Below, in pieces: positions 2,706 to 62,342 of a stretch of 64,000 nucleotides of DNA. The position numbers and the translations under genes are program-made. The DNA is from Mesotaenium endlicherianum (Eukaryota), in the NCBI GenBank assembly GCA_009602735.1, contig WELA01001229.1, positions 106,820-170,819 of the forward strand, in the 5' to 3' direction. Under the pieces are notes generated by a model. That model saw only the letters and a list, made by a program, of their open reading frames with translations. It did no database searches and was not told where the DNA came from. The number at the start of each line of letters is the position of its first letter. Position 1 is the first letter of the stretch.

Positions 2706-3396
2706 CAAATGGGCAAGTAAGCAAGGGGAGAAAGACATGTATGCGGTCAGGACCCAGCAACCCCCACCTGTACCCAAAAGGGGGAGGTCAGCAGAATACT
2801 CTTTTTTTGGGAACGGCTGGAGGAGATGACCAAAGAGACTCCAGAAGTCTCAGAGGAACAGGAGGACAAATAGGAGGAAGGCGCCGGAGAGGGATCTAGT
2901 CCTGTTGAGGCACAGACCCCTGCTGCATCCCCCACTCTACAGCAGACTGGAAGAGCCTTTGCACAGGCAAACTCTGCAGCAGCTTGGGGATACCAGCCCA
3001 CCAAGAGACCCAGATCTCCAGTGGCTAGGGAGTTTCAGCAGGACGAGTCCCACCCCAGGAGGTGAGACTCGATCAGATAGAGCAGACAGAACGGCTGCCA
3101 AGAAGGCAACCAGAGGGCAGCCAGCATCCCCCTCTCATAGAGGGCATGTACCCTTAGCCCATGTCATGCAGCACCCCTCCGGTATGCCAGTATATGTCCT
3201 TGTCAGTTTGAGAGCTGCACAAGAGAGAGCAGTCTTCATCGACATGCAGACTGTGCAAGAGCAGGATGCCCAATTGCTGCGTTCACCGCTTGGTTCACCC
3301 TGGTCTGAGCCCCCAAGTTTTAGGAGGCCATCAGACAGGAGAAGGAGATCCAGTTCCAGGTCTCGCTTCCCAGAAGATAGAGCCCCTGGTACTTAG
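2706..3396 (+). pseudogene. 3' fragment of family A accessory ORF3 (frameshifted)
   Basis: Encodes KWASKQGEKDMYAVRTQQPPP...GHVPLAHVMQHPSGMPVYV...LRSP...RAPGT*, homologous to 11750-13411 and 46415-47993. Confidence 0.85.
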
Positions 3397-3752
3397 TATG
3401 CTGTTGTCTTTGTTTTAAAATCAGTTGATTGTGTTTCATGTGTGTTACCCTGTTGTAAATAATAGTAGGAAGTATTGTCGAGTCGACAACAATATAAGTT
3501 GGAGGGATTGTAATGAATCGGTATATTGGATAGATATAGTATTAATTTAAATATAATACTTAATTGAGTTCAGCCTGCTGAACTTTAGTTAATAGTAAGT
3601 CTGCTGGATATTTGATACTTAGTTAAATGACTCAGCCAAGAGCAGCAGGCTGAAGTCAATTAGGTCAGCCTGTTGACTTGGGTCAGCTTGCTTACACATT
3701 CTTTGATAGTCAGCTGGCTGCCGTACTCGGCAGCAGCGCACTGCCTAGCTAT

Positions 3753-11631: not shown

Positions 11632-11749
11632 ATCCCTCAAACTTAACATGTTGTCGCCTCGACAACACTGACACAGGGTACATAGGTTTCTCCAACTGAA
11701 ATTACTGATCCCTCTCCATCCAGCATAATGTCCCCTTGGCCCTCCACCT

Positions 11750-13411
11750 TTATGAGGGAGATGCCCCTGGGGCCCTATGGTCAAGGGAGTTAGTCCTCCT
11801 CCTGTCTTGGGGTCTTCTGAAGCCTGTCAGAGAGGGAGGTTTCGTGTAGGGACCCGGCGGAGAACGCAGTAACTGTGCTGTTTCCTCCTGCACGGTCTGA
11901 AATTGAATGGAGGCAGCCTTCTGCTGGGCATCCCTCAAACTGACTGGTACATATACCGGCATCCCAGAAGGATGTTGCATGACATCAGCTAAGGGTACAT
12001 GCCCTCTCTGCTGGCTATTTCTCTAGCAGCCCTCCTGTTTGCCCTGTCTGACTGGGTCTCCGTGCCTGGAAATGGGTTTTGTCCTCTGGCAGTTCCCAGC
12101 GAAGTGATATCCTCCTCTTGAGCGAGTTGCTGCAGGGCCAGCCCCGTCTTCTCCCTTACAGGGGATGTGGCAGGTGTCAGGATCACGGCGGGGCTAGTGT
12201 CCTCCTCCTCGCCTTCCTCCTCGTCTTCCTCTGACTCCTCCTCCTCTTCGTCCCCGGGTTCCTCTGAGACTTCTGGGGTCTCTTCTGTCAGCTGCTCCAG
12301 TTTTTTCCGAGAAAAAGAATATCCCACTGACCTTCTCCTTTTGGGTGCTGGTGGGGGCTGCTGAGTCCGGACCGCATACAGGTCCTTTTCCCCCTGCTTG
12401 CTTGCCCATTTGGCATAAGCGTGCTTTCCTTTTGAGAATGACTCTCGGGCCCTGCTTTTGTCCCCCTGTATTTCTTGGCTCATGCAGTCTCTGACTCCAT
12501 CCAATCTTGGGTCCCAAGCCGCAATGTGAGGGGGCACTACTATGTTCCCCTTTAGGTCTGTCAGGAAATCCTCATCCGTCGCCCTGTCATTCTGTTGGTC
12601 CCTCATGTTGATGGTCATTCACCGCCAATTGGTGAGCTTTTGGAAGAAGGCAGGGTCTGTCCTTTTAAAAGTACAAGGGTACCAGTGCCCTGCAAAGTCT
12701 AGCTGACTGGTCTCCCTGGCCAAGAATTTCCAGCTCCTTCTCATTATACATGGCCTTGAACCTGTTATAGGATGTAGAGTCCTTGAACCTGTTATGGGAT
12801 GTAGAGTCCTTAAAGCTGTCCACGTCCATGGGGATCATCCTGATGACCCTATCTTCCCCCCAGATCCCAGGAATTGATACAGCCCCTGCTTCGTTCACCT
12901 GGACCATTGCCTTGGCCTCTCTGACCGTATATCCTACCATCCTGGCGTAATCGTGGTAGAGGAGGAGCCCCGTGCTGACCTCCATATACTTGTCAAAAAT
13001 TTTGGATGTCTCCCCTTCCCTCTGGAGGATGTCAATCTGTGACTCACAGCGACTTCTCTGAGCATACTTGAAGGCCTCCTCCAGTAGATCGAAGCCCTTG
13101 CCCAGTACTGTGTAGCGGTAGCTGCTGATTCAACTCTGCTCTTCTTCAGCCTGCTGCTTCCACTTCTCCTCAGCTTGCCTCTCCTCCTCTGCTTTCTTGG
13201 CCTCCTCTGCAGCTTTTCTGTCCAATTCTTCCTGCCTCAGTCTGGCTTGTTCCTCCTCCTCCTTCTTCTTCTGTGCCTCCCGTTGTTGTTGGAGTCGTTG
13301 TGATTCTCGAGCGGAGATAGAGGATGATTCAATGTCTCCACGGAGTTGCAAGTATTCTGCATGTGCCTCTTCCGCCCTTCTCTTCCTCTTGAGTTCCGAC
13401 TTTTGAGTCAT
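11750..13411 (-). pseudogene. A2 accessory ORF3 (unknown function; stops and frameshifts)
   Basis: Pieces 13130-13420, 12665-12985, 11989-12618 and 11750-11980 align in order with the 535-aa ORF at 46410-48017. Confidence 0.85.
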
Positions 13412-13759
13412 CTTGCTCAATCATAAACACAATGCAGTTAGTGAAGTCATGATGTTTTGCCGCTACTGACTGCCCTTGATGAAGAGGAACGCGATCGGGA
13501 GAGTTCCTAGTGTGAAATACCTCGTGTGAGTGAACATAAGGGAAAATTGAGTTAGAGAGAAAGTAAGTGTGAACGCAGGTTGAGTGTGTAATATGGTTAT
13601 CAGAGTTTTTCCGGTTGATCTCGAAACAGAATACCACTCCCTCCAACTTAATTTTAAAATGGGGCTGCCTGTCACAACCGTCACTTACTGTCACATCCCC
13701 CTCCAACTTATATGGAGACAGGACCTCCTGTCACCTTCCCATGTCTACTGAAGGGACAG

Positions 13760-38795: not shown

Positions 38796-39517
38796 TGAAA
38801 TGAATCGACTTACCAAATAGGCGATTAACAATTAATAAAGATCTTTATATCAGCAAGTAATCTTTATGGTACTTTCCGTTAACTGTTTTAACGGCAAAAG
38901 GACAGCGCACTAGCAGTGAATAATACTCGTCAGTCAAATGAGAGTAAACTAGCATCAATAATGCAAATCAGTAAACTCATACATAAGCAAGGTTAGAAGA
39001 CAGTGCGTATCAATGGCTTCTCGCCTTGGATTCAGATCTCTCTCAGTAAGCTGTACAAGAGAGTTGGCCTCGTTTCCGAATGCCGAACTCGAGAGCAATG
39101 CCTAGCATATGTACATGGAATGAGTTTACTGTTCAACGGTCAGTGCGATGGCACCGCCTACCCGGGAGTTAACCACGTTGGTAGGACCTCGGTTAACCAA
39201 ATCCACCGCCATCTCCCATCATCCCGAATAGCCATCCATCATAGGGATGTCATCTGGCTATTCATCTAGCATATCGCACTTAGATGCATATCAAGGCAGT
39301 TCGCTGCTACCGAGTACGGAAGTCAGCTTGCTGTCAAAGAATGTGTCAGCAAGCTGACTTATATGGACTTTCAGCCTGCTGCTTTCGACTGAGTCATTAA
39401 ACCGATAATTATGTAAAGTCCAGCAGACTGACTATTAACTAAAGTTCAGCAGGCTGAACATAATTAACTATTATATTTAAGTGAATATTATATCCACTAA
39501 TATACTGATTCATTACA
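38796..39517 (-). repeat. A3 3' LTR
   Basis: Near-identical to 53559-54274. Confidence 0.95.
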
Positions 39518-39630
39518 ATCCCTCCAACTTAACTTGTTGTCGCCTCCACAACATTAAACTGCAGAAATTTTAAATAAGGGAATTGAATCCGACCAGCCTC
39601 CCTTACTGACTGCCTCTTCAGCGTGTCACC

Positions 39631-39728
39631 TTAAGGGGTTGTTCCTGGGGCTTCAGGGTCAGGAGACGGAGATCTGGACCTAGATCTGGACAGCCCTCTA
39701 GGTCTGTCAACTGGCCTTCTAAAGAACC
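39631..39728 (-). pseudogene. Displaced C-terminus of A3 ORF3
   Basis: After removing B2 and one TSD copy, the frame continues LEQT|GFFRRPVDRPRGLSRSRSRSPSPDPEAPGTTP*, matching the ends of the other ORF3 copies. Confidence 0.85.
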
Positions 39729-39733
39729 CTGTT

Positions 39734-40236
39734 TGTAGTGAAACAGATAGATAAAGTACTTAGTAAAACAGAATACTTTATCTATTCAAGACAAGGATCT
39801 TTGAACACAAGTGGTAGCTTCTTGAAAGAGAGATGGCTTCTTGAAAGTTAATATATTTCTGGATTTTGGCAAGTACAAGAGTGATTCTGGAATGTCTTTC
39901 TATGTTCTAGCTCTTGTTTATATACTTGCTACATAAGTAATTTCTAGGAAGGTGTATGTTGATGTGTTGGCACCCAACACATCCCAAAACTTGCCACCTC
40001 TTTCTAGAATAATGTACACATGTCCTTTTGACCTAAAAATGGCACATCTGACTTTTGCCACATGGAGTTCTTCTAGGTCTTTCCTCTAACTTCGAAAATG
40101 CCTTGGAAGGTTCAAAGGACATGAACCAAGTTACTAGAGTACCTATTCACACTTGACTCCACACAATACTACTCCAAATATATTTGAAAACATTAAAATA
40201 TATGCAAACTAATATATAATAACTCAAATCACTACA
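39734..40236 (-). repeat. B2 3' LTR
   Basis: Near-identical to 45911-46414. Confidence 0.95.
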
Positions 40237-41005
40237 TCACCCCCCCGATAGAAAAAGCGACGTCTCGGCGCGTCAAGTCAGGTCTTACACATGTGGAGCA
40301 AACTAGTCAACAGTTTCAAGTCAGATGCCACACATGTGAAGAGGACTAGTCAAAGGCGCCAAGTCAGGTGCTACACATGTAAGGTAGACTAGGCAAGGTC
40401 GTAGGTGGTGTGACCTTATTGGCTAGCCTACTCCTTAATGATAAAGAAAATTGTACAAGTTGGCCCAGAATCTGCCACGAACTCAAAAATTCATAGCGGC
40501 CACAGAACTGCTCCAAATCTGAAAATTCGAGTGCCAGACGGACCGCGTCGGAGAACTCTACCGGGTCACCAAATTTGAGAGCATTCTCATTTCTGGAGTG
40601 TCGTTGAGAGCTGAGAGAGTAGGCACTCCTCCAAATCTGTGCAGAAACTTCTGAAAATCATAAGTCCTTCTATACTTCTCCAAATTCTGCAAACTAAGTC
40701 TCAAACTGGGCGCTGTAAGATGTTCTACCAGAGTCTTGAGTTTCAGAGCATTCCAAGTTCAGGGGAAGGCACAATGTCAGAAGGCATATTCTGTCCTAAC
40801 AATGCCAGCAGCCTGACCCCCTTCTACTTAGAGCATCATATCTCTCTCACCAGTGCTCCAAATTGAGCAAACTTGGACTCTAAATGACCGGCTACTCATG
40901 GACTACAGCCAGGTAAATTTTCAGAATTTATTATGCAGAGACCTATTACCAGTAGCAGTTTTAGTTTTCTGTCCAGAAACTGCGAGAAGAGAAGAGTGTC
41001 TAATG

Positions 41006-44000
41006 TCAATTTTTCCTCTTTCTTGTTCTTGCAGGCTGCCTCCAAGGGGTCTTCTGCTGCTTCTTGATGGTGGCAGGCTGCCTCCCTGAAGTCTTCGGGC
41101 TTCTAGTAGAGAGACTTGGGGCTGGTCCAAGATGGGGGTTGGCGGCATGGAAGCGCTTCAACTTTCTCTGAACTTTGTCAAGGTAGTGCGCCGCCACCCA
41201 ACTATTCTCCGAATCTGGATATCCTTTCCACTTGATCAAGTATTGCTGCTGTCTCCTGAAATTTCTCATAGCCACTATGTCTTCCACTTCGTACTCCAAA
41301 TGATCATCCACTATTGTTGGGGCTGGTGGGGTTGTCACACGTCCTGGGAACTTGTTGTCGGGTTGCACATATGGCTTGAAGAGGGAAGCGTGGAATACGG
41401 GGTCGATGTGCATAGTCTGGGGAAGTTCTAGCTTGAAAGCAACGGGGTTGACTTGCTGGATAATCTTGAAGGGTCCCAAATACTTGGGAGAGAACTTGCT
41501 GCCGGCAGGCCTGTTGTTCAGGGAAATGTTCTTGGATGATAGTAACACGTTGTCACCCACTCTGTACGTAATTTCTCTTCTGGATCTGTTCGCCACTCTT
41601 GCTTGAGCATCTTGCGCGTGTTGTAGAGCTTTCTTCGCTGCTGTAAGGGCTGCTTCTAATGTCTCCATAAAATCTGTGGCTGCAGGTACTTCATCATGGC
41701 CAGCCGTGAAGCTCAGTGGCGTGGTCGGATGGAAGCCATAGTTGAGGAAGAATGGGGACTCTTGGGTAGAGGCCTGCGTAGTGTTGTTGTAGGCAAACTC
41801 GAGGGGGGTCAAGTACATGTCCCAGTCTTGCTCGAGGGTAGACACGTAGGCCTTTAGAGAGGTCTTTAGGGTACGATTCATACGCTCGGTTTGCCCATCT
41901 GATTGTGGGTGGTAGGCAGTAGACATATCCAGCGATGTACCCAAGTTCTTGAAGAGATTTTTCCAGAAATGGCTTGTGAATCTTGGATCTCTATCTGACA
42001 CAATTCTTGATGGTAGTCCATGGAGTCGGAAGATGTTGTCAAAGATGAGTCTTGCAAGTTGTGGTGCTGTAGCCTTAGTCGTCGTGGGAATAAAATGAGC
42101 CATCTTGGTAAGTCTGTCCACCACCGTGAGTATTGCATTATGGCCTCGAGGTGTCACGGGCAAGTCCACGATAAGGTCCATTGAGATGTCCGTCCATTGT
42201 CTTTCGGGGATTGGTAGTGGTTGGAGGAGTCCTCCCGCCTTTTGCGATGATGGCTTGATTCTTTGGCATGTGTCACAGCTCCTGCAGTACTCCTTGACTT
42301 GCTTAGACATGCCTGGCCAACAATAAGTCCTAGCTAGAACGCCCGTGGTCCTTAGGATTCCAAAGTGTCCTCCAAGAGGGTTGTCGTGTGCTTCTCGTAG
42401 AAGCAAGAGCCGGAGGTCTAAGTCATTAGGAACACATCTCTGGCCCGTATCTTGCCTCACCCAATAATTGCCTTCTTGCTTCTTGCATGGGTCCAAGGCT
42501 GCTTCTCCGTTCTTGTAGTAAGGGTCTCTTTCATAGGCGGCTGAAAATCGAGCTTCCAGATCTGTCTTCAGGGATACCATCACTGCATTTAATTGCAGTC
42601 TTGAGAGGGGGTCAGCCGGGTTTGTCTTGCCGGGCTGGTACTGAATCGTGATGTTGTATTGTTGCAAGTATCCGCTCCATCTTGCTTGTCTCCTTGAGAG
42701 ATACGGCTGCGTCTGGAGGTGCTTTAACGCCTCGTGGTCCGTGGTGACCAGTACTTTGCGTCCTTCAACGTAGCAGCGCCAAACCTTCAAGGCATGTACA
42801 ATCGCCAATGCCTCTCGCTCCGTGGTTGTATAATTTTGCTCGGCTGGATTTAGCTTCCTTGACTCGTAGGCGATGGGCTGCAGTCCCTTGCCTTGGTCTT
42901 GAAGCAGGATTGCTCCTATTGCATAGGAAGATGCATCGGTGATGACGTGGAAGGGCCAATCTGGGTTTGGACTTGGGAGTGTGAGCACCGGGGATGTGGT
43001 CAATCTTCGCTTTAACTCTTGAAATGCCTCTTCCTCTTTCTCGGTCCATGTATATAGCCTGTCCTTCTTGAGTAGATCTGTCAGGGGGGCTGCTATGTGC
43101 GAGAAGCCTTGGATGAATTTTCTGTACCAATTGGCAAATCCCAAGAATGACTGGAGTTCTTTCTTGGTCGTGGGGGTTGGCCATTCCTCCACCACCGTGG
43201 TCTTCTTGGGGTCTATCTTGATGCCATCAGCAGTCACGTGGAGACCTAGGAACTCCACTTCTTGTTTGGCAAACTCGCATTTTGACTCCTTCGCAAACAG
43301 CTTGTTTTGCTTCAATACTTCAAGGACTTCTTTCAAGTGTCTCGCATGCTCTTCAAGGGTCTTGCTGTAGATAAGGATGTCATCGATGAATACCACCACA
43401 AATCTGTCCAACATGGGCTGAAATATGGTGTTCATCATAGTCATGAAAGTTGCTGGCGCGTTGGTGAGTCCAAATGGCAGGACCATGAACTCAAAATGTC
43501 CATATCTTGTCCTGAATGCCGTCTTCTCTATGTCCGGTTCTGCGATGCGAATCTGGTGGTAGCCGCTCCGTAAGTCAATCTTCGTGAAGTACTTGGCTCC
43601 AACCAGCCGGTCCATGAGCTCATCCATGCGCGGCAGCGGGTATCGATTCTTGATGGTGATCTTGTTGAGGGCGCGATAGTCCACACACATCCTCAAGGTA
43701 CCATCTTTCTTCTTGACAAATAGCACCGGGGCTCCAAATGGCGACTTGCTAGGTCGAATGAAGCCATGCTCCAGTAGCTCCTTGATTTGCTTCTTGACTT
43801 CGTCTAGCTCCGTGTATGACATTTTGAACGTAGGCCGAGAGATGGGCTTGCTTCCGGGCTCCAACTCTATCTTGTGGTCTACGAATCTTTTGGGGGGTAG
43901 GCCCTTGGGCAATTCCGGGGAGAACACTTCTTTGTAGTCCTCAAAGACTTCTTGTATCTCCTTGGGAACGGGGCTGCCTTCTTGACTCTCGATGTCTTTC

Positions 44001-44614
44001 TTGATGTCTTTTGGCGTGATCAAGGCCAAAAGAAGCTCGTGTCCCTTCCTCACAAGTCTCTTGAGTTGGAGGGCGGACAATAGTATCTCGTGTGCCGGCT
44101 TCTGGATGTCTTGGGTCTGGATATTCTGGATTGCGCGCAAAATACAGATTCTTGAAGTGATGTCATTCTTGATCTTGATAGTACCGGTCCTCCAATCAAC
44201 TTGGGGGTTGTGCTTGGTCAACCAAGGCGTCCCTAGGATGACGTCGTACTTGCCCAATTGCATGGGGGAGAACACTACTCTATCCTTGAAGGACTTGATA
44301 GAGAGTGCCAAGGGGTACGTCTTCTTGGAAGGGGTAGTATAGGAGAATCCATCGGGCATCATAATCTCCTCGTCGTGGTCAAGAGTTCGCATAGTAATAC
44401 CGTGCTTGGTGGCAAAATCTGCAGCAATGAAGTTGCCTTGAGCTCCGCTATCCACCAAGATGTGGACCTTCTCTCCTCCAAGGTAACCTCTCAAACTCAT
44501 TGGGGCTGGAACGTCGTCTTCAACGGGGGTCTCCACCTCACTTGGCGTGTTGCCTTCTCGTGAAGTGGGTCTTGGGGTGGTAGGCTCCTGGCCTACCGGC
44601 GCTGTCCGTTTTTT
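41006..44614 (-). CDS. pol: B2 Pol: protease-RT-RNase H-integrase-chromodomain (in the -1 frame relative to gag)
   Basis: Uninterrupted 1221-aa ORF (41006-44671) with [31 protein letters not shown] and [22 protein letters not shown] motifs. Confidence 0.95.
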
Positions 44615-45873
44615 GACAACTTTTTGGGGCATGAAAGTGCACGATGGCCCTTTTCCTTGCAATAGAAGCATAGTCCAGCCGTCATGAGAGCTTCTTTTTC
44701 AGCCGGGGAGAGTCTTGCTTTCACTCCTTGCTGGTTTCTTGCATCATAAGTGTCATTGGAGGGTCTTCCACTCTTCCGGGCAGCCGCGGGGTCCCTTTTA
44801 ATAACTCCGATTTCCATGGGTGTGGGTCCAGATTCGGATGTGGAAGGGGCTGCGTACACCCGCGTCGTCGGTACCCGTGAAGATGAAGGCACGGAGTGCT
44901 TGAAATCCAAGGTATCCACCTTTTGGGCCACTTCAATGATCTTTGAGAAGTCCGTCAAGTCGCGTAACTCCACTTCCTTTGCCACCTTGGGTTTGAGGCC
45001 AAAGATGTAACGGTCAATCTTCTCCTCGAGAGACATGTTGGGGATCTCAAGAGTGAGGGCGTGAAATCTGGATGTATACTCTTGAACGGACGTCGTTTGC
45101 TTGAGATGGTGGAGCTTTCCTCGGGCAATCTTCTCCGCATTGATGGGCATGAATTGCTTCTTGAGGGCCTCACGAAAATCTGCCCATCTTGCATATGATG
45201 GTGGGGGCTCTTGGCCGAGCATGGGGTGCGCCATAGCTTGATATATAGCCGCTTGATAGTTACGCCACCATGATGTTGCTGCTCCTCTAAGTAAGGTAAC
45301 GGCAAAGGGAACGTAGTCCTCCTCGGGTACTTCAAGGAACGCGAGGTACGTCTCCACTTGGTAGAGCCATAAATTCAGGTTGGCACCTTTCCCGGGGTTG
45401 AAAGTGTCGGGTTTGCCGGGCTTGATGAGTTTCCTTGCTCTCGTTGGCTCTTGTGGAGGCGCTTGAGCCGGGGCTGGATTTTGAGCATTGCTCGCAATAG
45501 GGGCAACCATGGCAGCCATAGCTTCTCTTGACGCTTGCACGGTTGCTTCATAGGTGGCCAAGCCCACTTGGTTGTGGACGGTCATTAGGAAGGCTGCCCA
45601 CTCATTTGCGGGAACTCCTTGTGGTGGGGTCAACTTTGCTATAGCGGCTGCCACGGGATTTGACGGTGCTCCTCCTTGTGGTGCTTCTTGTTGTTGCAGA
45701 TTTCCTTGAGTAGGCTCTCCCATCGACGCTGGAGGAGGGTGTGCTCCTCCTTGTGGTGCTTCTTGTTGTTGCAGATTTTCTTGAGTGGGCTCTCCCATCG
45801 GCGCTGGAGGAGGGTGTCTTGGAGAGGAAGGGCTTCCTTCGAAAGCTTGCTGTTGGTCTTGAGGATCGGCCAT
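44593..45873 (-). CDS. gag: B2 Gag (426 aa)
   Basis: ATG just after the [24 protein letters not shown] and [14 protein letters not shown] motifs. Confidence 0.95.
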
Positions 45874-45910
45874 CTTCTTGTGCTACCAAAGTGCCTAGCT
45901 CCGATACCAC

Positions 45911-46414
45911 TGTAGTGAAACAGATAGATAAAGTACTTAGTAAAACAGAATACTTTATCTATTCAAGACAAGGATCTTTGAACACAAGTGGTACCTTCTT
46001 GAAAGAGAGATGGCTTCTTGAAAGTTAATATATTTCTGGATTTTGGCAAGTACAAGAGTGATTCTGGAATGTCTTTCTATGTTCTACCTCTTGTTTATAT
46101 ACTTGCTACATAAATAAATTTCTAGGAAGGTGTATGTTGATGTGTTGGCACCCAACACATCCCAAAACTTGCCACCTCTTTCTAGAATAATGTACACATG
46201 TCCTTTTGACCTAAAAATGGCACATTTGACTTTTGCCACATGGAGTTCTTCTAGGTCTTTCCTCTAACTTCGAAAATGCCTTGGAAGATACAAAGGACAT
46301 GAACCAAGTTACTAGAGTACCTATTCACACTTGACTCCACACAATACCACTCCAAATATATTTGAAAACATAAAAATATATGCATACTAATATATAATAA
46401 CTCAAATCACTACA
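45911..46414 (-). repeat. B2 5' LTR
   Basis: Adjacent to PBS TGGTATCGGAGC. Confidence 0.95.
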
Positions 46415-47993
46415 CTGTTTGCTCTAAAGTTGGCCCTCGAGGAGAACGGAGGATGGTGGCCTGCTCTTCAACCACTTGGGTGTTGATTCCCACATAGACA
46501 GGCATTCCAGTAGGATGCTGAAATACATTGGCTAGAGGTACATGCCCCTGAGCGGAGGAGGAGGCTGGCATACCTCTGGCCCACCCGCGTGTCCCTCTTC
46601 TGGCACCCCTGTCCTCTGGGGATTTCTGTCTGTGTCTGCTGCCCAGTACAGTCAGATCAGCTTCTTCCCCTGCTTGGGCAGGTGGGCTGGGGGAGCGAGC
46701 GCGGGGTCCAGTTGTCGCCATAACGGGGATCACATTCCACACACCTGATCGTGGTTCTTTAGGAAGTGCCACTGCCTGTCCCTGGGTATCCTGAGAACCT
46801 GCTGCTGATGATTCTCCTCTGCTTTGTTCTTCTTCCTCATCCTCCTCATCCTCCTCCTCGGAGAGAGTAGGGGTCTCGTCCACTAAGTCGTCCTGCTCCC
46901 TAGTAGACATGGAGTAGTCTACCGACCTCCCTTTCTTAGGGCGCGCTGGAGGTTGCTTGGCCTTCAGCCTGCTGATATCTATCCGGCCTGCATTCTTTGC
47001 CCATTTGACAAAGGCATGCTTTCCCTTAGAGAAGTAGTCTCTTCCCCTCCTCCTATGCTCCTTGGTCTCTGCATTCATATTGCTCAGGCATCCATTCAGC
47101 CTGGGGTCCCAAGGGGCAATGTGAGGTGGTAGGATGAGATAGCCGTCTAGGCCATAGTGGAAGTCATCCGGTTGGGCTCGGTCACACTCCTGCTTCTTAT
47201 TTGTGACGGTCATCCACCTCCAGTCTGTTGGCTGCTGGTAGTACTGGGGTCCGTGCTCAGCCTTCCTCAGTTTACACGGGAACCAGTGGGGAGAGAACAT
47301 CTGCTGTCCTGCTTCCCTGGCCAAGTACTCCCAGCTCCTTCTCTCAACTTCATTGTAAGCTGGCAGGAGTGTGAGGTAGAATACCGTATCCTTAAAGCTA
47401 TCGGGCCGCATGCTCACCATCCGGATGAGTCTCTGATCTCCCACTATTCCCGGTATGGGGACCGGCTTGTCCTCTGAATCATCTGCGAGATACCGGGCCT
47501 GCTCTGCTGTATAGCCCACCATCTTAGCATAATCTTCGTAAAGGACCACGCCGGTGTGTGTCTCGATGTACCTGTCCAGTGCTGTAGCTCCTTCCTTCTG
47601 TAGCAGTGTTGTCTGTTCCAGCCTGTTGATCTCCTGGGCTGCCAGCAATGCTTCCTTCAGGTTATCGAAGTTTTGGCCACCCACCACAGTATACCTGTAA
47701 GTGGCCAAGCTCTTCTGTCTGTCCGCTTCAATCTTTTTTCTTTTCTCCTCTTCTGCCGCTGCCGCTTCTTCTTGCTGTTTCTTCTGTCTCTCCTCCTCAG
47801 CCTTCCTGAGGTTTTCCGCTTCCTGATCCTTCTTCCTCTGTGCCTCTTCTGCCGCCTCTTGTTGTTTGCGGACCCTTTCTTGTTCTCTCCTGGTGAGGGA
47901 CGTCGCCGCCAGCTCCTTCTGGTATTGCTCCATTGTCCTCCTGGCTTCTTCTGCCTTGCGCTTTCTGTCCTCCTTTTGTGTGGTGGGCGCCAT
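46415..47993 (-). CDS. A3 accessory ORF3, protein of unknown function (last ~32 codons displaced by B2)
   Basis: Open frame 46410-48017. Likely ATG at 47993 (MAPTTQKEDRKRKAEEA aligns with A2 MTQKSELKRKRRAEEA). Homologs occur in A2 and A0. Confidence 0.87.
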
Positions 47994-48260
47994 CCTGCAC
48001 ATGTAACCAGGGCACAAGTTAGTAGGATATGGACCTTTGTCATAGGGATTGCAGGAAGTATGTTAGTATTTAGTATAGTGGCTTCGCTGCTGTTTACCTT
48101 ACAGGATGATTGCTAAAAGTTGACGTAGTTGCGATGCGCTACACATAAACGTATGAGTGTGTTTTTATCGCTCTCGCTCACTAACTGTCATATATTTTCC
48201 CCTCCAACTTAAATGGAGACAGGACCGCCTGTCACCTTCCCGTGTCAACTGAAATGACAG

Positions 48261-51200
48261 TTATGGAGGGACTCCAGCGGCCCGAAGGTGGAACCGTGTC
48301 AACGCCCCTTTGGCATTGGTCAAGTGGTCCTTAAACTCCCAAGTGTCCCCAGAGGCATCGTAACCCTTCCATCGAATGAGGTATTTCATGACATATTTAG
48401 ACGATCGACGGACCGAGCGAGCGTCTAAAATCTCATCGACCTCATATTCCTCAGGGTCGCCGTCCCGGACAGCGGGGACCGGTCCCGGTTGGACAGGGAA
48501 CCGACCTGTGAACAGTGTATCACCTTTGATGTACGGTTCCAGGAAGGAGACATTAAAGACCGGGTGCCCCTTGTATTCAGCTGACATGTTCAGTTTGTAA
48601 GCATTCTGACCGACACGACGGACCACCGAATATGGACCGACCCAGACAGGGCCAAGCTTTTTCTTGACCACACCAGGGAGGTACAGGTGCTGAGAATGCA
48701 GTTTGACTAAATCCCCCTTGGAAAATGTCAGTTCCCGACGGTGTTGATTAGCGTATTTTTGTTGGTTTTCTTGGGCCGTGTGCAAGTTTCGTTGGACTTC
48801 TGACAGGGTGTCAGCAAACTCCTGAGTTAACTGGAGGGAGACCGGGTTGTCAATCCCTTCAGGGTGAGTTAAAGATTCCCCTAGCACATCTAGAGGAGAC
48901 TTAGGGACTCTACCCAGGCTGAGTTCAAAAGGAGTTTTGCCCGTTGACGCGTGCACCGCACTGTTGACCGCAAACTGAATTTGAGGCAACAGGTCATCCC
49001 AATTATCTTGTTTTTGGTTAATATATGCTCTCAGCACCTCCTGCAGAACTCGGTTAGTTCTTTCAGTCTGCCCATCAGTCTGAGGGTGGTTTGCTGTGCT
49101 GAGCAGCTGTTTGACTCCCATTAACCCCATTAAAGCTCTCCAGAACTTAGAGGTGAATTTTGAGTCTCTGTCTGAGATGATATTAGAAGGGAGCCCATGT
49201 TGGCATACTACATGGTTGTAAAACTGTCTCGCTGTTTCGAGTGCAGTCACTTTGACAGTTGTGGGGATAAAAATGACCATTTTTGTCAGTTTATCCACGA
49301 CTACCAGTATTGAATCATGCCCGTTGGCAGTTCTTGGTAGTGAGACCACCCAGTCCATGGATATAGTTTCCCAGCGTCCCGCTGGGATGGGTAGCGGTTG
49401 CAAGAGACCTCCGGGTGGTGTGTGCCGAGACTTATTTCTCTGACACTGGTCACAGGACTTGACATATTTCAAGACCTCCCGGGGTAACCCCTCCCAATGA
49501 TAATGTTTTGCCAGTTTGCCAACAGTTTTGGCCTGCCCCAAATGTCCACCCAGGAGACTGTCATGAGCTTGACTCAGTAAGAGAGACCTTATTTCCAAAT
49601 TATTAGGAATGACCAGCTTCAGCCTGCCTGAAGTGGTTTCAGTCACCCAGACCCCTCCCTTGAGCTTATACCCGAGTGCGGTAGCACGACACATACCAGT
49701 AGTGGGGCTGGGCTCAAATGTTGGGTCAGAAAGGTAGGCTTTCCTAAGTTGTTCAAGGAAGGACTTTTTCACCTTTAGTGAAGTGAGTGCACACAGGACT
49801 TTATCTACAGCATGCTGACTAAAGTTCCTTTCTTGCAAGTCAGGTCTTCTAGAGAGTGCATCAGCAGGATTCAACTTCCCTGGTTTGTAGTCGATCTGGA
49901 CTTGGAACTGCTCCAGCATCTGGCTCCAGCGGTTCTCCCTCCTCGACAGCTTGGACTTCTTCTGAAAGTGGGTCAGAGCTAGATGATCTGTAATCACCTT
50001 AAAAGCTTTACCATGTAAGTATGCTCTCCACTGTTTGAGTACATGAATGATAGCTAGCAGCTCTTTATCATGCACTGAGTAATTAATCTCCGCTGGATTA
50101 AATTTCATAGACTCATACAACACAGGATGCCACTCCTGCCGTACCTTACCATCCTTTGTGGTTTTGTCAGCAGGTTGCAACAAAATAGCACCCATGGCAA
50201 AATCAGAGGCATCAGTAACCACCTGCACCGGTTTGCTGGGGTCATACACGGCTAGCACTGGGGCAGAACAAAGGGCATCTCTAAGGGTCTGGAAGGCAGC
50301 CTGCTGTTTTTCCCCCCTCACATACCCAAGGTCTTTCTTAGTAAGGTCAGTCAGTTTACTGGCCTTTGTGGAATAATTCTCAATAAATCGCCTATAGTAG
50401 TTAGCCAACCCGAGGAAGGATCTAACTTCAGAGACAGACTGTGGTACTGGCCAGTCCCTTATGGTCTGGACTTTCTTAGGATCCACACTGATGCCCTCTT
50501 TACTGACAACGTGGCCTAAGAATTCAATACTTTCCTTAAAGAAATCACACTTGCTCATCTTAGCATACAAGTGATTTTTCCGCAGAGTGTCCACGACTGT
50601 TTTTAAGTGTTCAGTGTGCTGAGCTTCATCTTTAGAGAAATTTAAAATATCATCCAGGAAAACTTGCACAAACTTATCCAAATAAGGTCTGAAAATGTCA
50701 TTCATAGCACCCATGAAGGTAGCAGGAGCATTAGTCAGTCCAAATGGCATCACGTTGAACTCATAGTGTCCATAACGTGTGCGGAAAGCAGTCTTGTGTT
50801 CATCCCCCTCAGCAATTCTGATTTGATGATAACCACTCTTGAGATCTATCTTACTGAACACCTTAGCGCCAGACAGGGTATCAAGCAAGTCCTCGATTCT
50901 GGGTAAAGCATACTTGTTCTTTACTGTAATTCTGTTCAGGGCTTTGTAATCCACACACATCCGCATACTGCCATCCTTCTTCTTAACAAATAGGATAGGT
51001 GCGCCGTACGGTGATTTACTGGGAGAAATGTAACCATTTTCCTCCAGCTCTGCAATCTATGTTTTCAACTCCTCCCTCTCCAAATAAGACAAGCCATACG
51101 TGCGTTGCCAAAGCGGCTGGCTACCAGGTAATAAATCAATCCTAGGATCTATTTCCCGCTTAGGGGGTAGTCCTGGAGGCATATTCAACACATCCGTGTA

Positions 51201-52070
51201 CTGAGCAACAATGTTTGCAGCAGTAGGGTGCTCTGGAGGGTGTACCTTTTTCTTAACCACTTCTTCAGGTTGAGGAGGTACCTCTCTTAGCAGCAGACAT
51301 AACATTCTGTCTTCCTTCTGGTTCCAGCTTTTGACGAACTCCATTGCATTCAGCAACTTGCATCCTTCTGGAAGCCTCTTCTTTTCCTTCATTTGCCATC
51401 CACACAGGACAAGAGGAAGAGCACTGGTGGGTGCCAAGTCAGTCTGCCCATCACTGGCTCCTCTCACTTTAACTGTACCTCTGCTCCAACACACTTCAGC
51501 TTGATGTCTATTAAGCCAGGACCTGCCTAGCACGAGATCATAAAAGCCAGTGTTGAGTACCTCAAATGTAAGCGTTTCAGTTAGAACTGCAATGCCAGAA
51601 CCTAACTGGACCTCAATAGGCTTGGTTATAACTCCTCCCGGGATACTTGAGGCATCTCCAAGGAATATTTTTCTATTCCCTTGGGTGACAGTAGGCAGCC
51701 TTAGCCGCTTAACTAAGTCCTTGTGAATAAAAGTATGTGACGCCCCTCCGTCAACAAATGCCCTCACCTTCCTACCTGCAATCATGCAATGCAGTAGGAT
51801 AGGGGGGACTGTCTTTTCCTGACTTTCGCATTGTTCTCCTGACGTAGCAAAGAAATGTTGGACATCAGGTGGAACAAGAGCATCCAGAGTGTGCACTCTC
51901 TGGACGTCTATATTACTGATGGTCTCCTTTATCTGTTTGTCAGGCATGCATAGTGAATCCAGTTCAGCAGGACCCATAATACCTGCTACGAGGGCAGCTA
52001 GTGACGACTCACTATCTCTAGCATCCTCACAGTCAGTAGACTGGATTACTGACTGTTGCTGTCTTTTAAA
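48261..52070 (-). pseudogene. pol: A3 pol: protease-RT-RNase H-integrase-chromodomain, with one in-frame stop
   Basis: ORFs 51057-51977 and 48261-50966 are in the same frame, separated by TAG at 51057-51059 (CAG in A2). FVDGGASH, FLDDIL, TDAS, SDRD and chromodomain motifs present. Confidence 0.93.
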
Positions 52071-53524
52071 GGCTGGTCTTTTCTCTCGACCTTAGGCAGG
52101 TGCTTGACCGGACACTGTTCTCTGTAGTGGCCTTTCTGCTGACAATGGTAGCAAGTAGATTTTGCTGAGGCTGGTCTCGGCTTAGTCCTACCACCACCCC
52201 TTCCATAGCCACCTCGAGAGGGACCACCTCTACCTCTAGACTGAATAGCATTGTACTCATACTCATATTCATCACCCTGATTATCCTCAGCCTGGTCTCC
52301 TTCAACTGCATTGTAGGAACCGTGGGGCTTTTTGACAATCTTAGACACCAAAGCGTTACTCTGGCGCTTGTGATTGAACTGCTGCTGATCCCAGGCGTCA
52401 GCATCCTGGATCAAGTCAGCCAGTTTCTCATACTTTTTCTCAGCAAAATGACCAGAGACCTCGGATTTCAAGCCATACCTGAAGTATGCTATCCTATACC
52501 GTTCTGGCAAATCAGGCTGCTTCATCATGTTCTCTTGGAACTTTTGAGCAAACTCAGCAACTGAAGTGGTCTGCTTCAGTGTCAGGGAGATCATCGCATA
52601 GATAGCTTTCTCCTGCTGGTTGATGACATCAAACTTCTCATGCAACTTCTCGACAAACTCTACCCACGTAGGGTCACCGAGTTGCCGAGCCTTACGCTCT
52701 TCCTTCCAGTAAAGCCACCAGTCTGCGGCACTGCCTTTCAGTAGCGCACCGGTGTGCCTGACCTTCTCGTAATCTTGCAGTTCTGGGTAGTTCTCCAGCC
52801 ACTGCTCAACATCCGCGAGAAACTTGATCAGGTAATATTTTCTGTTTCCCTCAGGATCATAGTCCTGGGGAGGTTTCGGCTTGGGCTTACTAGGCCCTCG
52901 GCCACCACCACTAGTGGTGTGAGACCCCAGTTGGTCTCTGTCCCGGAGTAGGGACATTATGATTCTTTTGTCCTCCTGCTGGGACTGATACATGGTCGCC
53001 ATTTGCGACTGCATCTGAACGAACAATGCTCCCAAGTCTACATTTTGGGGTGGTAGATTAGCAAATGCAGCAGCAGCATTGGCATCTACTCGCTGAGTAG
53101 TGTCCTCAACAATCCCTCTTGCTCCTGCAGCAGCAATTCCTGCCGCATTCAGCCGGTCACGTATTTGACCTAGGGGTACATTGAGTTGTACGGCAGGAGG
53201 TGGGTTCAGAACATTGGCCCTTGATGCCATAAGTTCTTCAACAGTGCGCTCGTCAGCTGGCTGTCCTTCCCTCCTTTGTATATCTTCAGCGGCCTTTGCT
53301 ACTTGTTCAGCTTCTAGTCTGGCTATCTCCTCCTCAGCTTGCTGAGCTGCGACTGAGGCAATAGCAGCTGCCTCATCTGCAGCCTCCCTAGCTGCAGTAT
53401 CCGCTACTGCTTCCGAATAGGTACGGTTTCCCGCTACATGGCTTTCCGCCTGGTTTTCGACATTCTCGTTATCCTGGTTCTCCATGTCTCGGGAGTTGCT
53501 AGTTTGAGACCTTGTCCTTACCAT
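52046..53524 (-). CDS. gag: A3 Gag (492 aa)
   Basis: LKQTTSVAEFAQKF, RGG-rich segment and CYHCQQKGHYREQC knuckle; ATG just after the PBS. Confidence 0.93.
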   Translation of the reverse strand: MVRTRSQTSNSRDMENQDNENVENQAESHVAGNRTYSEAVADTAAREAADEAAAIASVAAQQAEEEIARLEAEQVAKAAEDIQRREGQPADERTVEELMASRANVLNPPPAVQLNVPLGQIRDRLNAAGIAAAGARGIVEDTTQRVDANAAAAFANLPPQNVDLGALFVQMQSQMATMYQSQQEDKRIIMSLLRDRDQLGSHTTSGGGRGPSKPKPKPPQDYDPEGNRKYYLIKFLADVEQWLENYPELQDYEKVRHTGALLKGSAADWWLYWKEERKARQLGDPTWVEFVEKLHEKFDVINQQEKAIYAMISLTLKQTTSVAEFAQKFQENMMKQPDLPERYRIAYFRYGLKSEVSGHFAEKKYEKLADLIQDADAWDQQQFNHKRQSNALVSKIVKKPHGSYNAVEGDQAEDNQGDEYEYEYNAIQSRGRGGPSRGGYGRGGGRTKPRPASAKSTCYHCQQKGHYREQCPVKHLPKVERKDQPLKDSNSQ

Positions 53525-53558
53525 ACAAAGAAGACTGTGATAACTGCTCCGATACCAC

Positions 53559-54274
53559 TGAAATGAATCGACTTACCAAATAGGCGATTAACAATTAATA
53601 AAGATCTTTATATCAGCAAGTAATCTTTATGGTATTTTCCGTTAACTGGTTAAACGGCAAAGGACAACACACTAGCAGTGAATAATACTCGTCAGTCAAA
53701 TGAGAGTAAACTAGCATCAATAATGCAAATCAGTAAACTCATACATAAGCAAGGTTAGAAGACAGTGCGTATCAATGGCTTCTCGCCTTGGATTCAGATC
53801 TCTCTCAGTAAGCTGTACAAGAGAGTTGGCCTCGTTTCCGAATGCCGAACTCGAGGGCAATGCCTAGCATATGTACATGGAATGAGTTTACTGTTCAACG
53901 GTCAGTGCGATGGCACCGCCTACCCGGGAGTTAACCACGTTGGTAGGACCTCGGTTAACCAAATCCACCGCCATCTCATCTCGAATAGCCATCCATCATA
54001 GGGATGTCATCTGGCTATTCATCTAGCATATCGCACTTAGATGCATATCAAGGCAGTTTGCTGCTACCGAGTACGGAAGTCAGCTTGCTGTCAAAGAATG
54101 TGTCAGCAAGCTGACTTATATGGACTTTCAGCCTACTGCTTTCGACTGAGTCATTAAACTGATAATTATGTAAAGTCCAGCAGACTGACTATTAACTAAA
54201 GTTCAGCAGGCTGAACTTAATTAACTATTATATTTAAATGAATATTATATCCACTAATATACTGATTCATTACA
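53559..54274 (-). repeat. A3 5' LTR
   Basis: Adjacent to the PBS; followed by TSD ATCAC. Confidence 0.95.
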
Positions 54275-55037: not shown

Positions 55038-56640
55038 GAATGACTCAGCCGAGAGTAGCGGGTTGAAGTCTACTTAAGTCAATTGAAAATGCTAACACGT
55101 TTTTTAACAGCCAATTGACTGCTTTAAGCGAAATGAGCGAATCGCCAATGATGCCAGTAATGCAGTAAGTTAGTAATGCCAGTAATGCAGTAACTGTGAT
55201 ATGCTGAATGAATGGCTGTATGACGCCACACGCGGATGGCAAATCGGTATGATGGGAGATGGCTGCGGATTTGGTTAGCCGATGTCTTACCAACGAGGTG
55301 AACTCCTGGGAGAATGCGATGACTTGGCATTGAACGGTAAACTCATTCCATGTACATATGGTACGCTATCGAGTTCGGATCTGAAAACAAGGCCACCTCT
55401 CTGTACAGACTATTGAAATCCAAGGCTACAAGCCGTTACAAATTGCTTACTAACCTTGCTTATGTATGAGTTTACCGATTGCAGCAGTGATGCACGTTAC
55501 TCGTATTTGACTTGTGAAAATGGCTTACGTCAATTGTGTTGTGTTTTTGCTGTTTAATGAGTTAATAAGGAAACACCTAAAGATTAGTTGCTGATATAAA
55601 TTTAAAAACTCAATTATTCAATAAGCATATTAATGACATGATTAATTGCTAATTGGGAAATCAATTTATTTTAGTGGCATCGGAGCTCTTATCACAGTTT
55701 TCTCAATGGTAGCACAGACTAGGTGTTAGACTAGCAATTTGGATAACGTGGAAGGTCAAGGAGAGAATCTCTTTGGTCCCCTCATTGACGTCGAGGTTGT
55801 GGAAGCTGCTGCAATGGTAGCGGAAGCAGCCCAGCAGGCTGACAAAGAGCATGCCAGAGTAGAAGGTGAATGCTTAGCTAAGGCAGAAGAGGATGAAGTA
55901 AGAGAGAGGAGATGTTTGACTTATGCAAAAACTGTCGAGGAGGACGTGGCACTCAGGGCCAATCATAACCCTTTTGCAGTACCCAGTATTGTGCCAAATA
56001 CAATTGTTCAAGGGCAACCGAGCCAAACGAGAATGGCTAACGCAACAGCAAGAAGAAATGCCAAAGATGCTGTCGATCGCCTCAATGCCGCTGCTGCTGA
56101 TCTACCTGCTCAAAATGTTGATGTTGGAATTGAGATGCTGCAAATGGCCATGATGTTGCAGAATTAGCTGGAGGATAGAAGGATCATGCTTGGAATAATG
56201 CAAGGGAGAAACCAAGTTGGTTCTTAACTGACCAGAGCGGTGACCATATCGGTGGCAGAGAGCCTAGTAGGCCGAAGCCAAAGGCACCTCAAGACTATGA
56301 CCCTAAGATTGGATCAATTTTCTTGGTGATATTGAGCCGTGGTTGGAGAACTATCCCCACTTGCAACACTCCGAGCAAATCATGCACACAAGTACTTTGT
56401 TGAAAGGCGGCGTAGCTGGTGGCTGTATTGGAAAGAGGAGAGGAAATCTAAACAACTCAATGATGCCCCGTGGGAAGAATTTGTTCAGCAATTGCATGAC
56501 AATTTTGATGTCAGTCATCTGAAGAAAAAGCTATCTATACGATGATCTCTTTGACAGTTAAGTAAAACATTTCAGTGGTGGCGCAGTATGCCCCTAGATC
56601 CGATGCAAATCATGATGAAGCAACCAGCCTTGCCCGAGCT
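55038..56640 (+). mobile_element. Old family-A-related relic: diverged partial LTR, PBS and decayed gag
   Basis: 55038-55673 resembles the A LTR; TGGCATCGGAGC at 55675-55686; peptides VAEAAQQADKE, LPAQNVDVG and WWLYWKEERK resemble A Gag. Confidence 0.75.
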
Positions 56641-57059
56641 GTATATGATACTATATAATACCATACTTTAGGTCGGGTCTGGCTTGATCCTCAATGCTTT
56701 GGCTACCAACAAGCAATGTGGTGTAGTGTTACCACTTTCGATTTCATGGTACTTATATACACCCAGTTTGTGAATAAATTCTCTTATTCTTATCCTTGTT
56801 TGGATGTGTTTTTGAGGTTGAGTACTACTATCTTTGTCCTGCAGCTGTACTAATGATCCAAAAAACACATTAACATGTTAGTCTTCAACATGCTTATGTC
56901 TCTAAGGTGCATGCACATCAGCATAAACAACAGTTTACTCACATTTGTGCCTACTACCCCTCAAATGTCGTATTGTATATGAAGTATTGTCATACACAAT
57001 TTAATGACAATCACTTCTAGCCTGTTTTAGTATGGTGTATCACTTATACATCTGTTTCA

Positions 57060-61200: not shown

Positions 61201-62297
61201 ATCCTATTCTCTTGATATATGAGGAGACCAGAAACAAGCCCCAAATAAAGCCGCTAGCTGAAGCCATCATGAAGTAGGACAGCGAGCGCCGCCACTACAT
61301 CACCGCAGGATATTACGGCATGAAGCTGTCATGACAGGCACTGCCTGCTTCAGGCTGCAGTCCGATAGTAGAGCCGTGACCCTGTCCTGTACGAGTGCCT
61401 CATGGTGACCAGCATGCTCACTGCCACCGGCTTGGAAGGCCGCATGGGGGAGGGGGGGGGGAGGGAGAGGGCAGGGCACCTGAAGACGGGCAGCACAGAG
61501 GACATGTAGGTGCCGCTGCTGGCCCGCTTTATGTACAGCAGGGCGCCAATAGTGAGGACGAGCGCGATCGACACGCCCACGAACAAGCCTGCATGCACCC
61601 CCCCCCCCCCCCNNNNNNNNNNNNNNNNNNNNNNNNNNNNNNCCCCCCCCCCCCCCCTTGGGCAGTCCATTATGCACTCTCTGTCCTGCGTCCAGATTAA
61701 GTCTTGGGGGGAGTAAGAGGGCAGAATGAGAGAGGCTGCACGCGGGGGTAGCCTGAAGGTGAAGGGTGCAGGACAGTAGTTTCAAGGCGGGATCCGCAGC
61801 ACCTGTGAAGAAGCTGACAGTGTGGGAGGCCGACTGGTGGTTGGGGCGGAGAGCGCGCATGGCGGACGGGCGGCTGCGCTCGGCAAAGTGCTCCGTGAAC
61901 AGCGCCTCCAGCCCACTCATGGTCTTGGCCACCTGGCACCCCCTTACGGTGACACGTGAGGGGCGTCAGAGCTTGCAGACCAAACTCTCATGGCCCTGGC
62001 TAGCTCGCACCACACGGGTTGCATGCCTGCATACACGCGAGCGTGCGCCCTGGAGCAGCAGCTGCTGCCGAGGGGCACAGGCACAGGCACAAGCACACGC
62101 CCACCCGCCCACCCATGCGTAGGAAGTGCTGACCTTGTCGGAGCATGTGAAGTGGGCGAGGTCGACAGTGCCGCCCTCCCCCACATAATGATGCAGCACG
62201 CTCCAGCCCGTCACCTGCCCCCATCCATGCGCGTGTGCCTCAGACTCGCAAGCAAGCAGTGCCACCTGCCGGTAGGAGAGACTTCCCTCTCTTCCTC

Positions 62298-62342
<45 letters not shown>

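What the first reader, a model, noticed from the sequence alone, without database searches (positions are those of the whole stretch)
46415..47993. Chromovirus carrying a third, sense-strand accessory gene (ORF3) of unknown function between integrase and 3' LTR
Seen: all three family A copies with a visible 3' region carry a homologous ORF after the pol stop and before the terminal PPT (A3 47993-46415 plus 39728-39631; A2 13411-11750; A0 2706-3396). The reconstructed protein is ~560 aa. It has an E/K/Q/R coiled-coil N-terminus and an aromatic-rich core (YRYTV.G, TG..LY.DYA.MVGYT, IPGI.G..R.IRM, DSFKD, PPHIA.WDPRL, FSKGKHA..KWA). It continues with a basic NLS-like patch (PKKGR/PKRRR), an acidic tract, a QHP.GMPVYV motif and an RS-rich tail. 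There is no signal peptide or TM helix, so it is not env-like. Known: extra 3' ORFs occur in Athila, Tat and SIRE lineages, whereas chromoviruses normally end with the chromo-integrase. I do not recognise this domain. Inference: a nuclear accessory factor, possibly anti-silencing (by analogy to VANDAL VANC proteins) or RNA-binding.
Basis: partly seen in the sequence, partly recalled or inferred. Interest (0 to 1): 0.88.

Follow-up and report, generated by a model that had tools for sequence, protein, structure and literature searches.

The report
Swappable orphan gene inside a retrotransposon
A jumping gene of a non-seed plant or alga carries, behind its usual genes, an extra gene of about 560 codons that matched no known protein, has long been kept functional and has been exchanged between related elements as a block; it likely makes a nuclear helper protein, but what that protein does is untested.

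Summary
Confirmed. A3 is an intact chromovirus with a target-site duplication. ORF3 (558 aa, split by nested element B3) lies between pol and the 3' PPT. A2 and A0 hold broken homologues; A0's link to pol is not visible.

New here:
- ORF3 is under old purifying selection (A2 v A0 dN/dS 0.13; A3 v A2 47% aa identity, silent sites saturated).
- It moves as a cassette: pol dS between A2 and A3 is only 0.11, LTR and ORF3 relationships disagree, and the breakpoints sit at a second PPT just after pol and at the terminal PPT.
- Both visible leaders have an intron-like donor, branch site and AG before the ATG. Splicing was not seen in reads, and expression is low.

No homologue or fold was found in any search. 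Function is inferred only: a nuclear accessory factor, most likely handling the element's unspliced RNA (Rev/CERV-like, ~0.35), with anti-silencing next (~0.25).

Extra ORFs are common in plant gypsy elements, including 18% of Tekay chromoviruses, so this is a new variant of a known kind. The scan noted an extra ORF behind pol in another genome (unchecked).

The parts
38796..54274 (-). A3: full-length Ty3/gypsy chromovirus, interrupted by element B3
   Evidence: LTRs 98.3% alike over 714 nt, TSD GTGAT, tRNA-Met-type PBS at the 5' LTR
53557..54274 (-). A3 5' LTR
52046..53524 (-). A3 gag (Ty3 capsid, zinc knuckle)
   Evidence: Pfam
48261..52091 (-). A3 pol: protease, RT, RNase H, integrase, chromodomain; one in-frame stop at 51057-51059
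48200..48211 (-). internal copy of the family's PPT (TAAGTTGGAGGG), about 50 nt after the pol stop; A2-A3 homology ends about 20 nt further on
47995..48097 (-). predicted 103-nt leader intron (AG|GTA ... CTAAC ... AG just before the ATG); not seen spliced in reads
   Evidence: absent from the joints
46415..47993 (-). ORF3 of A3, codons 1-526: coiled coil with basic patch (1-97), conserved core (98-345), NLS-like patch, acidic tract, disordered linker, QHP motif
39734..46414 (-). B3: nested chromovirus of another family that splits ORF3
39631..39728 (-). ORF3 of A3, last 32 codons and stop (RS-rich tail)
39516..39553 (-). terminal hairpin and PPT of A3; homology among copies resumes here
38796..39515 (-). 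A3 3' LTR
11750..13411 (-). ORF3 homologue in A2, broken by two stops and by frameshifts; 47% aa identity to A3's
13412..13710 (-). A2 leader: two internal PPT copies (13710, 13650) and a predicted 109-nt intron (13520-13412)
2707..3396 (+). C-terminal half of an ORF3 homologue in A0, frameshifted; followed by PPT (3495) and LTR (3509)

Best explanation
ORF3 is a selected accessory gene of a chromovirus family, carried on a cassette between two polypurine tracts that has been exchanged between related elements, and it likely encodes a nuclear protein, predicted to be made from a spliced message, that would bind the element's own RNA and help the unspliced genome escape splicing or leave the nucleus. 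Shown: the gene, its place in the element, purifying selection, discordant ancestry of cassette and backbone, and the two PPTs at the breakpoints. Inferred: exchange by template switching during reverse transcription, favoured by plus-strand priming at the inner PPT; expression through the leader intron; nuclear import by two basic patches; oligomerisation by the coiled coil; RNA handling, because a retroelement that keeps an intron in its genome must package unspliced RNA and the protein ends in an RS/R-rich tail. My odds: real selected cassette 0.9; nuclear accessory factor 0.65; RNA-handling role in particular 0.35.
For: Selection: A2 v A0 dN 0.23, dS 1.78 over 156 codons; A3 v A2 pN 0.34, pS 0.79 over 413 codons, identity by codon position 0.60/0.68/0.41. 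A neutral simulation at the same nucleotide identity gave 29% aa identity (max 35% of 300 runs) and 20 stops, against 47% observed. Exchange: A2-A3 pol dS 0.11 and 95% aa identity against saturated dS in ORF3. LTRs pair A2 with A3 (90-95% v 84-89%), but ORF3 pairs A2 with A0 (75-82% v 57-60%). Identity falls from 86-99% to about 60% at 48200. TAAGTTGGAGGG occurs 5 times in the window, all in family A: twice as terminal PPT, three times just after pol. Leader: donor, CTAAC and AG at like spacing in A2 and A3 although the leaders are otherwise unalignable (p 0.39); all three signals together in 2 and 0 of 20,000 shuffles (criteria chosen after seeing the data). A CTGAC branch-like word lies in the last 60 nt of 5 of 12 introns of the neighbouring host gene. 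Precedent: CERV of C. elegans Cer1, a 517-aa spliced nuclear protein needed for genomic RNA export (PMC10309623).
Against: No read spans the predicted intron or joins an LTR donor to ORF3 in 3 RNA runs, and ORF3 depth is 0-18x, patchy, and zero in one run (only 6-24% of each run was read, at 90% likeness or more, so A2-type transcripts could not map). No RNA-binding fold or domain was found. The RS tail is weak in A2. An acidic tract and deeply diverged, swapped alleles fit a chromatin or host-conflict role just as well. All three copies in the window are broken or split. A3 also has an in-frame ATG 9 nt upstream that needs no splicing. Three copies are a thin base for placing breakpoints.
Confidence: 0.35

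Rival explanations
1. ORF3 is a chromatin or anti-silencing factor (works like VANC): it binds DNA or nucleosomes of its own family and lowers methylation or heterochromatin there, and the diverged alleles are swapped in an arms race with host silencing.
For: NLS-like patches, an acidic tract of net charge -16, and a coiled coil (VANC21 is predicted to dimerise by one, PMC13547354). Alleles are far older than the backbone and exchanged. The N-core model shows a beta-hairpin plus helix at pLDDT 60-71, a shape seen in some nucleic-acid binders (recalled).
Against: No PMD/MAIN-type or other chromatin domain in Pfam and no fold match. Family A is weakly transcribed in the runs laid. No tandem arrays of target motifs were looked for.
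Confidence: 0.25
2. The cassette is the remnant of a second unit fused behind the original 3' end (pol-PPT-[decayed LTR or promoter]-ORF3-PPT-LTR). It is transcribed from its own internal promoter and rides along as a partly selfish or dispensable passenger, or helps at integration or particle assembly rather than with RNA or chromatin.
For: The inner PPT sits exactly where an ordinary chromovirus would end and is followed by TG. One contig loose end at 39557 shows a different sequence upstream of the terminal PPT that resembles the post-pol stretch, a 30-letter hint of ORF3-less variants. Grande gene23 has its own promoter (PMC7264820).
Against: The leaders match no LTR in the window. Selection long enough to saturate silent sites implies a benefit to whatever carries it. 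This reading explains origin, not function, and can hold together with the best explanation.
Confidence: 0.2
3. ORF3 is a captured host gene (or a gene of another, unsampled mobile element) whose selection signal predates capture.
For: An intron-like leader would fit capture from DNA. The host genome could not be searched.
Against: No homologue in 5.8 billion proteins (word-based, 289-923 aa) although that collection holds at least one of this host's gene models (P0122), nor in 1.84 billion representatives. Three deeply diverged alleles all lie in the same slot of the element, so they diverged there.
Confidence: 0.1
4. ORF3 is an env-like or cell-to-cell movement protein.
For: Position and sense match env, and env messages are spliced (PMC7264820).
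Against: No TM helix (maximum hydropathy 0.73) and a charged N-terminus; no env or movement-protein family hit.
Confidence: 0.05

Closest known systems
Extra ORFs (eORF-3'F) of plant Ty3/gypsy elements, incl. Tekay chromoviruses (REXdb, PMC6317226)
   Same: Long sense ORF between pol and 3' LTR, lineage-restricted, no known domain. REXdb lists 3372 gypsy elements with eORFs in 314 groups, and 18% of 782 Tekay elements with eORF-3'F.
   Different: Family A lies outside the angiosperm clade in the RT-RNase H tree. REXdb shows no eORF for Chlamyvir, Tcn1, Galadriel, Reina or CRM. None of the eORF-linked Pfam families named there matched. A second PPT and block exchange are not described in the passages read.
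CERV of C. elegans Cer1 (PMC10309623); retroviral Rev/Rex (recalled)
   Same: Orphan accessory protein of similar size (517 aa) with coiled-coil part, NLS and globular core, made from a spliced RNA of an LTR retrotransposon.
   Different: CERV shares exons with gag and is shown to export genomic RNA. ORF3 lies after pol and neither its splicing nor its function is shown. The two were not compared directly; the database searches gave no link.
VANC anti-silencing proteins of VANDAL DNA transposons (PMC13547354)
   Same: Fast-evolving accessory gene of a plant transposon with a coiled coil.
   Different: VANC derives from MAIN/PMD and belongs to dicot MuDR elements; ORF3 shows no PMD match.
ORF3 cassettes of bdelloid LTR retrotransposons (PMC5408684)
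   Same: Family-specific, non-env ORF3s gained, lost and shared as modules, and described as expressed from spliced messages.
   Different: Those encode recognisable GDSL esterases, DEDDy nucleases or TM proteins; this one is unassignable.
Grande gene23 and Retand/Ogre 3' ORFs (PMC7264820)
   Same: Accessory gene between pol and 3' LTR; gene23 is nuclear and has its own promoter.
   Different: Those are antisense and in non-chromovirus Tat elements.

Membership tests
Chromovirus (Ty3/gypsy) | gag-PR-RT-RH-INT order with C-terminal chromodomain | tested here: met
   Pfam on A3: Ty3_capsid, protease, RVT_1, RNase H, integrase parts, SH3_Tf2-1, Chromo E 1.4e-8
Chromovirus (Ty3/gypsy) | LTRs with TG...CA, PBS, PPT, 4-5 bp TSD | tested here: met
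Tekay clade | RT groups with seed-plant Tekay elements | tested here: inconclusive
   A2/A3 fall outside the clade of 8 angiosperm hits (support 100) on a long branch among Closterium and unnamed hits, but those hits carry no clade labels
Tekay clade | found in seed plants; chromodomain without aromatic cage | tested here: not met
   Host PHO1 exon is closest to Sphagnum (65%) and moss/lycophyte (61%), at most 60% to named seed plants; A3 chromodomain keeps Y/W/Y at the cage positions (positions recalled)
Chlamyvir / Tcn1 clades | RT placement with reference elements; Tcn1 mostly self-priming | not testable with these tools
   No labelled references held. A has a tRNA-Met-type PBS, seen in 41% of Chlamyvir and 5% of Tcn1
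env-like ORFs (Athila, SIRE, errantivirus) | transmembrane helix / signal peptide | tested here: not met
   maximum 19-residue hydropathy 0.73; charged N-terminus
Described Athila/Retand/Ogre eORF proteins | Pfam ATHILA ORF-1, Transposase_28, PMD, DUF390 and the like | tested here: not met
   none among Pfam hits at E up to 0.1 or 5; list
VANC-type anti-silencing factor | PMD/MAIN-derived domain | tested here: inconclusive
   no Pfam hit; models too poor for a fold test
VANC-type anti-silencing factor | sequence-specific binding and loss of silencing at cognate elements | not testable with these tools
   needs ChIP and methylome data
Rev/CERV-type export factor | made from a spliced element RNA | tested here: inconclusive
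   signals present in 2 of 2 visible leaders; no spliced read in 3 RNA runs at depth 0-2x over the leader
Rev/CERV-type export factor | nuclear, binds genomic RNA, needed for its export | not testable with these tools
   NLS-like motifs only

The most novel reading that the evidence does not exclude
A PPT-bounded, exchangeable accessory slot in a streptophyte chromovirus: plus-strand priming at the inner PPT lets elements trade very old alleles of a protein of new fold, each allele travelling with its own leader and 3' UTR (its cognate target) as a self-contained regulator or counter-silencing module, much as phages trade cassettes. It would be a plant-lineage LTR retrotransposon with a Rev-like or anti-silencing gene.
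Probability: 0.2. Interest if true: 0.85.

Novelty: new variant of a known kind. Interest (0 to 1): 0.55.

Why it matters
The function of extra ORFs in plant LTR retrotransposons is a standing open question (PMC7264820). This case gives an orphan protein with clear conserved motifs, natural alleles at 47-68% identity on near-identical backbones, and a definite cassette boundary, so allele-swap and localisation tests are direct. It also extends 3' accessory genes to a non-Tekay chromovirus of a non-seed host, and suggests a route (a second PPT) by which retrotransposons exchange 3' modules.

Tried and rejected
Homologue searches for ORF3, all empty:
- word-based search of 5.8 billion proteins, residues 90-350: 0 of 3682 candidates
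- phmmer over 1.84 billion representatives, residues 90-527: 0
- metagenome contigs: 0 of 69 pattern hits; viral contigs: 0 of 3
- PDB sequences: 0 at E 10
- Pfam and PHROGs: only weak hits under cut-off (Borrelia_P83 on the coiled coil, Obc1_C E 0.007, TALPID3 on the acidic part), not shared between copies and rejected
- ESM Atlas: best score 0.76, noise level

Structure: AlphaFold2 gave pLDDT 36 for the core and 53 for residues 97-205. Fold searches of the latter gave no E below 0.2 and a best Z of 3.4. This says nothing on whether the fold is new.

Other dead ends: no whole genome is held, so copy number, linkage and a host paralogue are untested. No RNA holder was listed by the run search. 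The leader is not a recognisable LTR relic. A likeness of the N-core to Arm/AP2-type or RNase H1 hybrid-binding domains (recalled) got no support from Pfam or fold search.

Literature: searches listed no paper that, by title or abstract start, describes this element or a PPT-bounded ORF cassette. Steinbauerova 2011 and REXdb Additional file 1 (per-element eORFs) could not be read and may hold closer chromovirus precedents.

Full report
Element. A3 runs from 54274 to 38796 on the minus strand. Its LTRs are 98.3% alike, it is flanked by the duplication GTGAT, and it has a tRNA-Met-type PBS. Pfam finds gag, protease, RT, RNase H, integrase parts and a chromodomain, so it is a chromovirus. Pol carries one in-frame stop. 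A host PHO1 exon in the window is 65% identical to Sphagnum and at most 61% to other named plants, which points to a non-seed streptophyte; the species was not determined. In an RT-RNase H tree of 124 sequences (120 database hits and 4 window elements; quick method, midpoint root) A2 and A3 sit on a long branch outside the clade of the 8 angiosperm hits, among Closterium and unnamed sequences, with no resolved sister.

The ORF. It starts at 47993, is open for 526 codons, is cut by element B3 (TSD AACAG) and ends at 39631: 558 aa in all. Shuffles gave at most 251 codons. Uninterrupted A3-type copies exist elsewhere: 3 reads in run X13 cross 39728/46415, and 2 contigs of X1 continue at 46415 with the 39728 sequence. 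One X1 contig covers 46865-48257 with 4 other letters and a single gap, and the one gap listed there lies in the leader. X1 may be the source sample. A2 and A0 hold broken homologues; for A0 only the 3' half is visible.

Selection. A3 v A2: 47% aa identity over 413 aligned codons, pN 0.34, pS 0.79 (saturated). A2 v A0: 68% over 156 codons, dN/dS 0.13. Protein-guided alignment lowers pN somewhat, but a neutral simulation at equal nucleotide identity reached at most 35% aa identity, with 20 stops on average. The gene has been functional for a long time, even though the copies here are decaying.

Cassette exchange. The same A2-A3 pair has pol dS 0.11, and nucleotide identity drops from 86-99% to about 60% at 48200 and returns about 40 nt before the 3' LTR. 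LTRs group A2 with A3, while ORF3 groups A2 with A0, which a single tree cannot give. The 12-mer of the terminal PPT recurs about 50 nt after the pol stop in A3 and twice in A2; all 5 occurrences in the window are in family A. A contig loose end at 48199 in X1 matches the A2-type leader in 28 of 30 letters (read by eye), so both leader types follow this pol end in that sample. I infer that the inner PPT marks the ancestral 3' end and acts as a recombination point; priming there is untested.

Expression signals. The A2 and A3 leaders do not align beyond the PPT (p 0.39), yet both have AG|GTA 103-109 nt before the ATG, CTAAC about 30 nt before it and AG at it. The joint pattern arose in 2 and 0 of 20,000 shuffles, on criteria chosen after the fact. 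Against this, three RNA runs of the same species label show little ORF3 RNA: summed depth per bin 0/0/0 (X10), 18/2/0 (X13), 0.4/0.6/1.9 (X16), and no joint at the predicted intron. X13's signal comes with 16 reads that join ORF3 at about 46574, where AG|GTATG is a donor on the sense strand, to an acceptor of family B in the opposite orientation, so probably from another locus. A2-type transcripts were not tested.

Protein. Residues 1-97 are a charged, helix-prone stretch with a basic patch kept in A2; 98-345 an aromatic-rich conserved core; then a basic patch kept in all three copies, an acidic tract, a variable linker, a GHVPLA-V-QHP-GMPVYV motif kept in all three, and an R/S-rich tail. There is no TM helix. 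Every homology search was empty and the models were too poor to place a fold.

Mechanism. Shown: gene, selection, exchange. Inferred: a nuclear accessory factor. I favour handling of the element's own unspliced RNA, because an element that keeps an intron must export unspliced genomes, and CERV is a precedent of like size and build (PMC10309623: abstract and section 9 read). Anti-silencing is a close rival; the acidic tract and old swapped alleles fit it, but no VANC-type domain matched (PMC13547354: passages).

Comparison with the known. REXdb (PMC6317226: passages, section 9, supplements 4 and 5) found eORFs in 3372 gypsy elements in 314 groups, forward 3' eORFs in 18% of Tekay, and none in the other chromovirus clades. 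One row of that table (Athila) looks column-shifted, but the Tekay row is fully filled; the per-element file was too large to read. The review PMC7264820 (parts 1-2 of 3) calls function and origin of such ORFs unknown. PMC11728184 (passages) describes NLS-bearing aORFs in Tekay (5') and Athila (3'). PMC5408684 (passages) shows modular ORF3s in rotifers. PMC2864245 (passages) marks an added ORF of unknown function in a figure of fungal elements, and PMC2774666 (passages) notes the odd reversed integrase part of the algal chromovirus REM1. So the kind is known; the protein, the clade and the PPT-bounded exchange are, within my 8 searches, new.

Verdict. Real, selected, orphan and mobile within the family, with function untested. 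Interest 0.55; new variant of a known kind.

Noticed in passing
window 40600-45980 (+ strand, inside element B3): Family B makes an abundant spliced ANTISENSE RNA. Six GT-AG joints lie on the strand opposite gag-pol (40909>41032 with 189/335/105 reads; 41180>41684 with 196/502/179; 43695>44423; 44480>44830; 44909>45698 and >45773), and the two stranded runs put the first mate on the minus strand. All six have canonical donors and acceptors; the first three exons give no ATG-ORF over 54 codons. It may be a regulatory non-coding RNA like that of micropia and deserves its own follow-up.
   Followed up: partly
window 48096-49139: Reads over the end of family A pol are mostly antisense-oriented in the stranded runs and differ from A3 at many fixed sites, so a diverged A subfamily is transcribed antisense from near the pol end.
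   Followed up: no
window 53456-53837: Antisense-oriented reads over the A 5' LTR and gag start run into unrelated AT-rich sequence at 53456 in all three RNA runs (22, 48, 98 reads): a chimeric transcript from another locus.
   Followed up: no
window 39557: One X1 contig has a different 246-nt sequence upstream of the terminal PPT; its 30 shown letters resemble the stretch after the pol stop, a hint of ORF3-less or third-type variants.
   Followed up: no
window 39530-39550, 11645-11665, 3475-3490: A short palindrome (TTGTCGAG-CGACAA type) just before the terminal PPT is kept in A0, A2 and A3 and folds as a hairpin in A0 and A2, less neatly in A3.
   Followed up: partly
window 46414 and 3753: Family B has inserted into family A twice in this window: into ORF3 of A3 and into the 3' LTR of A0. 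The region 1-24700 is a multi-layer nest.
   Followed up: no
window 55191-56650 (+): Old, diverged family A relic (about 70% identity): part of an LTR, PBS and broken gag, with no pol or ORF3 visible.
   Followed up: partly
window 58282-64000 (-): Host PHO1-type SPX-EXS phosphate exporter gene with G-rich introns. Exons of further host genes lie at about 25700-36000, one with ankyrin-, CCCH- and RRM-like stretches (read by eye).
   Followed up: partly
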